In this document: piece after piece, positions 2,081 to 63,365 of the stretch
Numbering within the stretch: the stretch's first letter is position 1
How the letters are laid out: each line of letters starts with the position of its first letter
Assembly: GCA_964016885.1 (NCBI GenBank)
Contig: OZ024740.1
Coordinates: 155,186,001 to 155,250,000, forward strand
Direction: 5' to 3'
Length of the DNA: 64,000 bases
Source: Eledone cirrhosa
Lineage: Eukaryota
Program-made: the position numbers and the translations under genes
Notes under the pieces: model-generated
The model's input: only the letters and a program-made list of their open reading frames with translations
Told to the model about the DNA's origin: nothing
Databases searched by the model: none

Positions 2081-2509
2081 TCAGGAATCTTCATACACAG
2101 CGTCCACTTCCAATGGTAATTTATATGACATCATCCAAACACCAGAAAATATGCCAAATGCACCTAGAGCCCATGCAGTGTAAGTGCTACCGACCAGGAA
2201 TAGCAGTGAGTTAAGGGGCATGAGGAAGATGACCAGTTTCTCATTCAGTCGAATCTCATCGACCCAGAGGATACTCCACAATACAATATAGACGGGTGTT
2301 GTGATGAAAATAATAATGAGCTCCATTGCACTTCGGATTGAACTACTCAGTTCAGCAGTGAACCAGATGTCACAGTGAAGGAAGGTCTGTATCCAGAGGA
2401 TGAATCCTACCATGAATATTGTGGGGACTGTTTGGTTCTTGTTGTTTAGACGCTGTAATATGTGATGATCTTTTTGCAGGCAAATTAGAATGACAGACAC
2501 ACCGCAATA
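2081..2509 (-). CDS. Terminal coding exon ([14 protein letters not shown]...EVDAVYEDS*)
   Basis: Acceptor tatttgcag|TAT, phase 0, 143 codons ending in TGA; several hydrophobic helices. Confidence 0.92.
   Translation of the reverse strand, partial: YCGVSVILICLQKDHHILQRLNNKNQTVPTIFMVGFILWIQTFLHCDIWFTAELSSSIRSAMELIIIFITTPVYIVLWSILWVDEIRLNEKLVIFLMPLNSLLFLVGSTYTAWALGAFGIFSGVWMMSYKLPLEVDAVYEDS

Positions 2510-63365: not shown

What the first reader, a model, noticed from the sequence alone, without database searches (positions are those of the whole stretch)
2081..63365. Animal gene resembling plant NO EXINE FORMATION 1 (NEF1), invisible in the ORF track
Seen in sequence: 10 short hydrophobic exons splice in phase into 591 aa of a polytopic membrane protein. 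Recalled, unverified: its blocks follow the order of Arabidopsis NEF1 C-terminal motifs. [13 protein letters not shown] resembles [26 protein letters not shown] resembles [26 protein letters not shown] resembles [25 protein letters not shown] resembles [18 protein letters not shown] resembles [26 protein letters not shown] resembles YPSYMVILT.LIGLAVVRRL. NEF1 is known from plant pollen-wall and lipid biology and I know of no characterised animal counterpart. Inference: an ancient, patchily retained eukaryotic membrane family, possibly in lipid handling. The large TE-filled introns argue against contamination.
Basis: partly seen in the sequence, partly recalled or inferred. Interest (0 to 1): 0.72.

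Follow-up and report, generated by a model that had tools for sequence, protein, structure and literature searches.

The report
Octopus counterpart of plant pollen-wall protein
These ten exons are the end of a spliced octopus gene whose protein matches the plant pollen-wall protein NEF1 along its whole length; the family also occurs in amoebae, other protists and marine invertebrates, so it is not a plant invention, and it likely moves lipids across cell membranes.

Summary
Confirmed. Ten minus-strand exons splice in phase (571 aa, not 591). They are exons 10-19 of a 19-exon, 933-aa gene spanning 265 kb, 91% identical to an 'uncharacterized' Octopus sinensis protein; one transcript-like contig matches the splicing. 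The protein is a full-length NEF1 homologue: HHalign probability 100, E 3e-65 over 874 columns, every segment matching, reversed controls blank. Named relatives are molluscs, annelids, a brachiopod, echinoderms, cnidarians, streptophytes, amoebozoans, Naegleria, Diphylleia, Anaeramoeba and Spironema. Animals form one clade outside plants, which favours ancient vertical inheritance and argues against a purely plastid role. The predicted structure (pLDDT 90) has 30 long helices, invariant intramembrane E151 and E415, and no convincing PDB match. Best guess for mechanism: a lipid-moving membrane protein (about 35%, untested). Two extras: the intron before 63306 is a rare U12-type GT-AT intron, and this genome also keeps an intact DEX1, the other plant primexine gene. 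The scan reported this family before in another octopus genome (e1-10345350). New member of a known but mechanistically dark family.

The parts
63164..63306 (-). exon 10 of 19 (first in window), codons ~362-409
   Evidence: tblastn; contig of run X3 covers exactly L008:164-306
63307..64000 (-). 3' part of intron 9, a 2610-nt U12-type intron with GT-AT ends (donor GTATCCTTT lies outside the window at G000:C1:155251916)
63316..63323 (-). U12-type branch-site motif TCCTTTAC, ending 9 nt before the AT acceptor
   Evidence: only such motif in L008
30261..63163 (-). intron 10, 32.9 kb, filled with LINE and Tc1/mariner remnants
30164..30260 (-). exon 11; encodes invariant E415
27958..28162 (-). exon 12; encodes near-invariant K464
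25123..25237 (-). exon 13
20324..20474 (-). exon 14
17049..17196 (-). exon 15
12893..13029 (-). exon 16
10391..10547 (-). exon 17
4006..4140 (-). exon 18; encodes the conserved LPxxGN motif (N766)
   Evidence: fits the 135-nt gap in the X3 contig
2081..2509 (-). exon 19, coding part with stop codon
1781..2080 (-). 3' untranslated region covered by the transcript-like contig; AATAAA at 1856

Best explanation
This is a spliced, single-locus octopus gene whose 933-aa protein is the full-length homologue of plant NEF1, likely inherited from an early eukaryote, and it likely works as a lipid-moving membrane protein of the secretory pathway or cell surface. Shown: gene model, spliced contig, full-length homology, wide eukaryote range (about 0.97). 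Predicted: about 25-30 membrane helices with short loops and no soluble domain; a compact, conserved N-terminal bundle (residues 35-300) followed by a long row of helical hairpins. Inferred (about 0.35): invariant polar residues in or at the ends of these helices (Q135, E151, E415, K464, N766, D804) line a path for a lipid head group or lipid-linked precursor, so that lipids are delivered across or between membranes for building surface coats; loss of this would explain the lipid and primexine defects of plant nef1 mutants. Because animals, amoebae and Naegleria have no plastid, the ancestral site is inferred not to be the plastid.
For: Gene and splicing. Homology: HHalign prob 100, E 3e-65, 874 columns; 6 of 6 tested segments match, reversed controls prob under 1; an HMM built only from 16 non-animal-clade proteins scores the octopus protein at E 1.6e-47 and its reverse below zero bits; ESM Atlas first hit 'No exine formation 1', score 0.87, a lead only. 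Range: 22 of 30 looked-up hits name an organism, 13 animals and 9 non-animals. Trees: animals one clade, SH-aLRT 100, with cnidarian, echinoderm and mollusc groups recovered. Model: pLDDT 89.8, pTM 0.77, 30 helices of 15+ residues, 25 of 30 hydrophobic. Conservation: E151 70 of 70, E415 56 of 56, K464 55 of 57, N766 52 of 56, Q135 63 of 69, D804 47 of 57 rows. Plant phenotype: lipid accumulation and primexine defects, reduced sterol esters (passages of PMC3220415, PMC6136457, PMC12346373).
Against: No experiment or structural match points to transport or to a substrate. No Pfam or NCBIfam family. The plant phenotype could be indirect; one paper proposes polysaccharide transport instead (PMC9681927). 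Reviews call NEF1 a plastid membrane protein, which cannot hold for animals. I could not inspect the model's coordinates, so a cavity or groove is not shown. Transcript support is one contig from one sample. The non-animal set was picked as hits to the animal profile, mostly on residues 35-250, so only the match beyond that region is independent. Both trees are quick searches with long branches; the AU test against an animal+streptophyte clade is borderline (p 0.0485).
Confidence: 0.5

Rival explanations
1. Same gene and family, but the protein carries a water-soluble solute (ion, sugar or activated sugar) that is needed to build an extracellular matrix; the lipid defects in plants are secondary.
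For: Invariant charged residues in helices suit a solute path equally well. PMC9681927 suggests transport of polysaccharide for the primexine. A weak sequence hit to PDB 6bhp, E 1.4e-4 on profile positions 756-849 (recalled to be the algal LCI1 channel).
Against: No internal repeat typical of solute carriers was found (15 of 15 segment pairs at probability under 10). The 6bhp hit is absent with the non-animal profile and 6bhp is not among the 50 rows of either VIA search.
Confidence: 0.2
2. The protein is the membrane scaffold of a small ancient complex, for example with DEX1, that shapes or patterns the plasma membrane and recruits coat material, with no transport of its own.
For: This genome also holds an intact DEX1. 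nef1 and dex1 mutants share the primexine defect (passages of PMC11548521, PMC4456728). The C-terminal two thirds of the model best resemble helical-repeat scaffolds (Z up to 9.8).
Against: Co-occurrence was tested in one genome only and the genes lie on different contigs. The structural likeness is within the noise for helical bundles. Invariant acidic residues inside helices are not needed for a plain scaffold.
Confidence: 0.2
3. The protein is an intramembrane enzyme (lipid acyl- or glycosyl-transfer, or remodelling) with E151 or E415/K464 as catalytic residues.
For: Absolute conservation of two glutamates and a lysine over more than a billion years; altered sterol esters in nef1 (PMC12346373).
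Against: No conserved His, Ser or Asp-Asp motif of known membrane transferases among the columns shared by both clades; no large soluble or luminal domain in the model.
Confidence: 0.15
4. The animal gene came from a plant or alga by horizontal transfer, or is contamination, or the likeness is only shared hydrophobicity.
For: Patchy range: no vertebrate, arthropod, nematode or fungus among the 22 named hits; low pairwise identity (17%).
Against: 19 exons over 265 kb with transposon-filled introns on a 443-Mb contig; orthologues across five animal phyla forming one clade outside streptophytes; reversed controls blank.
Confidence: 0.03

Closest known systems
NEF1, No Exine Formation 1 (Arabidopsis At5g13390; tested through the Vanilla planifolia and Chara braunii proteins so named in UniRef)
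   Same: Colinear over 874 columns; same N-terminal F-x-Y-N-x-R, W-x-x-L-Q-F, E151 and SSF motifs; same E415, K464, P592, N766, D804, P862, P888; polytopic membrane protein with no known domain; one locus found in this genome.
   Different: About 930-980 aa against 1050-1130 aa; several plant segments missing (for example about 46 columns near residue 335); only 17-30% identity; host has no plastid, pollen or sporopollenin; no function tested in any animal in the papers searched.
Uncharacterized proteins LOC106878824 (Octopus bimaculoides) and LOC115211136 (Octopus sinensis)
   Same: Direct orthologues, 88% and 91% identical to the model here.
   Different: The databases give them no family name; the O. 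bimaculoides model departs from all others around residues 190-250.
Membrane domain of human adenylyl cyclase 5 (PDB 8sl3) and microbial rhodopsins (7bmh)
   Same: Best membrane-protein rows for the N-terminal bundle: Z 8.5-9.0, rmsd 4.4-5.4, 135-188 residues.
   Different: Scores lie inside the range that the tool gives for unrelated helical bundles, identity 6-8%, no Foldseek support; not taken as homology.
U12-type introns with GT-AT ends
   Same: Donor GTATCCTTT, branch motif TCCTTTAC, AT acceptor; this class is listed in PMC1557818 (7 of 66 non-canonical U12 introns in four species).
   Different: Here in an octopus gene; whether the intron is shared with other NEF1 genes was not testable.

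Membership tests
NEF1 family | Full-length, colinear sequence homology to proteins named NEF1 | tested here: met
   HHalign prob 100, E 3e-65, 874 columns; segments and reversed controls; BLASTP to Vanilla NEF1 E 2e-14 and 3e-5
NEF1 family | Large polytopic membrane protein without a known catalytic domain | tested here: met
   30 long helices, 25 hydrophobic; no Pfam or NCBIfam family in animal or plant members
NEF1 family | Reciprocal best match with Arabidopsis At5g13390 itself and match to the PANTHER family | not testable with these tools
   The Arabidopsis sequence was not among the hits that I named, and PANTHER is not held; Vanilla and Chara stood in. No other family appeared among the 30 hits looked up
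NEF1 family | Orthology rather than a paralogous subfamily | tested here: inconclusive
   One locus in this genome (one search is a floor); animals and non-animals split on a long branch and the trees are unrooted, so an old duplication is not excluded
NEF1 family | Plastid location and role in tapetal lipid and primexine formation (as reported for Arabidopsis) | not testable with these tools
   Cannot apply to an animal; reported in passages of PMC3220415 and PMC6136457; the primary paper was not held
Known transporter, flippase, scramblase or channel folds | Structural match to a solved fold | tested here: inconclusive
   Foldseek 0 matches at E 0.001 for both models; VIA best Z 9.8 and 8.7, within noise
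U12-type (minor) intron | RTATCCTTT donor and TCCTTRAC-like branch site close to the acceptor, with transcript-defined ends | tested here: met
   the junction cannot slide either way
U12-type (minor) intron | Removal depends on the minor spliceosome | not testable with these tools
   Needs knock-down of U11/U12/U6atac

The most novel reading that the evidence does not exclude
NEF1 is not a plant plastid protein but the founder of a pan-eukaryotic class of about 30-helix lipid translocators with a fold not yet solved, which works with DEX1 as an ancient two-part membrane module for laying down surface coats. Plants use it for the pollen primexine; octopus and other marine invertebrates kept both genes, while the usual model animals seem to have lost them, which is why it went unseen.
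Probability: 0.15. Interest if true: 0.85.

Novelty: new member of a known kind. Interest (0 to 1): 0.55.

Why it matters
NEF1 has been treated for twenty years as a plant, plastid, pollen-wall protein of unknown mechanism. A full-length counterpart in animals, amoebae and other plastid-free protists moves the question to general eukaryote membrane biology, names the residues to mutate (E151, E415, K464, N766), and opens tractable hosts (social amoebae, Naegleria, sea urchin, snail). The confident model with no solved look-alike makes it a good cryo-EM target. The joint presence of DEX1 suggests that the 'primexine' genes are an older module. Limits: the gene was already annotated as uncharacterized, automated family databases may already link it to NEF1 (recalled: a PANTHER family of that name exists; not checked), and no function was tested.

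Tried and rejected
Pfam on exon pieces and on whole proteins: nothing over cut-off; NCBIfam 0 of 6 proteins; Rfam 0 in the window. Word-index homologue searches found only 4-5 close relatives; the exhaustive profile search was needed (232 hits at E 0.001, 150 listed, 30 looked up by name). Structure: no Foldseek match in PDB or viral models; VIA rows within helical-bundle noise; ESM Atlas had no model for either query. The 6bhp sequence hit was not reproduced. No internal repeat. NEF1-DEX1 complex prediction: no answer (score 0.00 in two runs, folded without alignments, both chains cut); this is neither support nor evidence against. DEX1 scan of metagenome contigs gave only 6 partial propeller matches at 24-32%, so co-occurrence beyond this genome was not tested. 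Run search: no RNA holder listed; X3 is taken as RNA from its intron-skipping contig, while X1, X2 and X4 run through exon borders like DNA. A processed pseudogene as the source of that contig is unlikely, as only one locus was found. My first guess of an AT-AC intron was rejected: the contig and the frame give GT-AT. The last-exon tree of 33 unnamed fragments was too poorly resolved to name new lineages. The careful tree did not finish; quick trees are reported. Prokaryotic relatives were not tested by a direct scan. Literature searches that found nothing: NEF1+exine+metazoa, NEF1+exine+Dictyostelium, LOC106878824; the library lacks most subscription journals, and supplements were not searched.

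Full report
1. Observation. A search with the last exon returned 5 proteins among 177 candidates, three of them named: Octopus bimaculoides LOC106878824 (913 aa), O. sinensis LOC115211136 (932 aa) and an Argonauta protein (934 aa), all 'uncharacterized'. Laid back on the window they give ten exons in order, covering residues 363-932. With the splice sites read from the sequence, 9 of 9 in-window introns are GT-AG and the frame is open for 571 aa to the stop at 2081. The host is an octopod by protein identity.

2. The whole gene. A search of the own genome put all 19 matches in one 265-kb stretch of C1 (a stricter first look was used, so it is a floor). Stretches upstream gave nine more exons. 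The 19-exon model is 2802 nt, 933 aa, one stop at the end, 91% identical to O. sinensis over 932 positions. Of 18 introns, 17 are GT-AG. The introns hold LINE reverse-transcriptase and endonuclease remnants and a Tc1-type transposase (10 of 12 ORFs scanned hit such families).

3. Expression. No run was on record as RNA, but in run X3 one contig of 2171 nt lies on 1781-2510, 10391-10547, 12893-13029, 17049-17195 and 20323-20477 with 0-1 mismatches each, and a contig of the same length and depth lies on 63164-63306 and on the exon before it. Contigs of X1, X2 and X4 run through exon borders, as DNA does. This is one sample of one study.

4. A minor-class intron. There is no AG near the start of exon 10. 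The contig joins L008:2917 to L008:306. The intron so defined begins GTATCCTTT, has TCCTTTAC ending 9 nt before its end, and ends in AT; the junction cannot slide. This is the U12-type GT-AT class, 7 of 66 non-canonical U12 introns in the table of PMC1557818 (passages).

5. Family. ESM Atlas gave 'No exine formation 1' as first hit, at 0.87, a lead. A four-sequence profile against 1.84 billion representatives gave 232 hits at E 0.001, of which 150 were listed. I looked up 30, chosen among the long ones. Thirteen are animals (Mactra, Haliotis, Patella, Pinctada, Biomphalaria, Owenia, Paralvinella, Lingula, Acanthaster, Anneissia, Lytechinus, Oculina, Xenia); nine are not (Vanilla and Chara 'No exine formation 1', Chlorokybus, Luapelamoeba, Polysphondylium, Diphylleia, Naegleria, Anaeramoeba 'no exine formation', Spironema); eight name no organism. 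No vertebrate, arthropod, nematode or fungus was among the 22 named, but 82 hits were not listed and 120 listed ones not looked up, so absence is not shown. The animal-side alignment (20 rows) against the non-animal one (16 rows) gives probability 100, E 3.1e-65, 874 columns, 17% identity. Split up, 6 of 6 segments match (E 3e-31 for 35-362, 2.7e-36 for 363-932, down to 1.6e-6 for 650-790) and all 6 reversed controls stay under probability 1. The non-animal HMM scores 12 of 12 animal-side proteins at E 2e-10 or better and none of their reverses. Caveat: the non-animal rows were found through the N-terminal part, so the C-terminal match is the independent part.

6. History. In a quick tree of 43 rows the 14 named animals are one side of a branch (SH-aLRT 100), with cnidarians, echinoderms and spiralians recovered and the three named streptophytes apart. 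A tree of the 21 named long rows agrees; forcing animals and streptophytes together costs 18.65 log units, AU p 0.0485, borderline. Long branches and uneven composition limit both. Vertical descent from an early eukaryote with many losses is the simplest reading; the trees are unrooted.

7. Anatomy. AlphaFold2 on 77 sequences gives pLDDT 89.8, pTM 0.77, almost all helix: 30 helices of 15 or more residues, 25 of them hydrophobic, short loops, no soluble domain, no clear internal repeat. The N-terminal bundle alone folds at pLDDT 91.8, pTM 0.87. Columns shared by animals and non-animals cluster in 37-229 and recur at 415, 464, 592, 604, 766, 804, 862, 888. E151 is kept in 70 of 70 rows, E415 in 56 of 56, K464 in 55 of 57. 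Neither model has a Foldseek match. VIA gives designed helical repeats for the C-terminal part and adenylyl cyclase 5 or rhodopsin helices for the N-terminal part at Z 8-10, which the tool marks as within noise for helical bundles.

8. Mechanism. What is known of NEF1 I saw only as passages in other papers: required for primexine, sporopollenin present but not deposited (PMC3220415); plastid membrane protein affecting lipid accumulation (PMC6136457); called a transporter, sterol esters reduced (PMC12346373); perhaps polysaccharide transport, often single copy (PMC9681927); a homologue in Chlorella (PMC4928020). The 2004 primary paper was not held. From a large all-membrane body, invariant polar residues in helices and a lipid phenotype, I infer a lipid-moving protein (about 0.35), ahead of solute transport (0.2), scaffold (0.2) and enzyme (0.15). 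Its presence in plastid-free lineages means that the ancestral site was not a plastid; this is inference.

9. DEX1. From recall that DEX1 gives a similar mutant, I searched the own genome with PF23722 and found one match over cut-off, in a 674-codon open frame on C4: an N-terminal hydrophobic stretch, FG-GAP repeats, the DEX1 beta-sandwich (E 3.4e-26) and a C-terminal hydrophobic helix. nef1 and dex1 are listed together as primexine mutants (passages of PMC11548521 and PMC4456728; PMC9292386 showed them in references only). Two such genes in one octopus genome is suggestive, but it is one genome.

10. Novelty. Searches for an animal or amoebal NEF1 found nothing; the 18 and 8 papers are on plants or algae by their listing. 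The library misses most subscription journals and I searched no supplements. Names such as 'no exine formation' on an Anaeramoeba protein show that automated family tools already reach beyond plants. The scan noted the same family in another octopus genome (e1-10345350, read after my own tests; the sequence look-up and the DEX1 look-up gave nothing). New here are the complete gene model with transcript support, the GT-AT minor intron and the DEX1 link. Verdict: real, a new member of a known but unexplained family; interest 0.55.

Noticed in passing
L010:4653-6674 (G000:C4:248991653-248993674, +): Intact single-exon DEX1 orthologue (673 aa; FG-GAP repeats, PF23722 E 3.4e-26, C-terminal hydrophobic helix): the second plant primexine gene, also present in this octopus genome.
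   Followed up: partly
L008:2916-307; window 63307-64000: U12-type intron with rare GT-AT ends, confirmed by the transcript-like contig.
   Followed up: yes
window 20317-20309 (-): An ATATCCTTT motif lies 6 nt inside intron 14, next to the GT donor that is used; perhaps chance (2 such on this strand of the window, about 1 expected), perhaps a trace of a former minor intron.
   Followed up: no
window 6527-9332, 38428-43068, 46615-48702, 56305-58755: Broken LINE copies with endonuclease and reverse-transcriptase domains; one frame also hits PHD-finger models.
   Followed up: partly
window 31341-32138 (-): Tc1/mariner-type transposase remnant split by stop codons (DDE_3, HTH_Tnp_Tc3_2).
   Followed up: partly
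window 52671-53375 (-): 234-codon frame that looks by eye like a Penelope-type reverse transcriptase piece (recalled likeness); no Pfam family at E 0.001.
   Followed up: no
window 61155-62929: Long tandem array rich in CAG/CAA triplets that keeps several frames open; not part of the gene's exons.
   Followed up: no
P0001, P0003, P0007, P0109: Database oddities: the O. bimaculoides model departs at residues ~190-250; the Argonauta model has two extra residues at the minor intron; the Mactra orthologue is named as a pleckstrin-domain protein; one member of the non-animal alignment carries an RWP-RK domain, likely a fused gene model.
   Followed up: no
P0045, P0079: Unnamed, very long-branched members that fall on the animal side of the tree; could be an early-branching animal or a relative of animals.
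   Followed up: no
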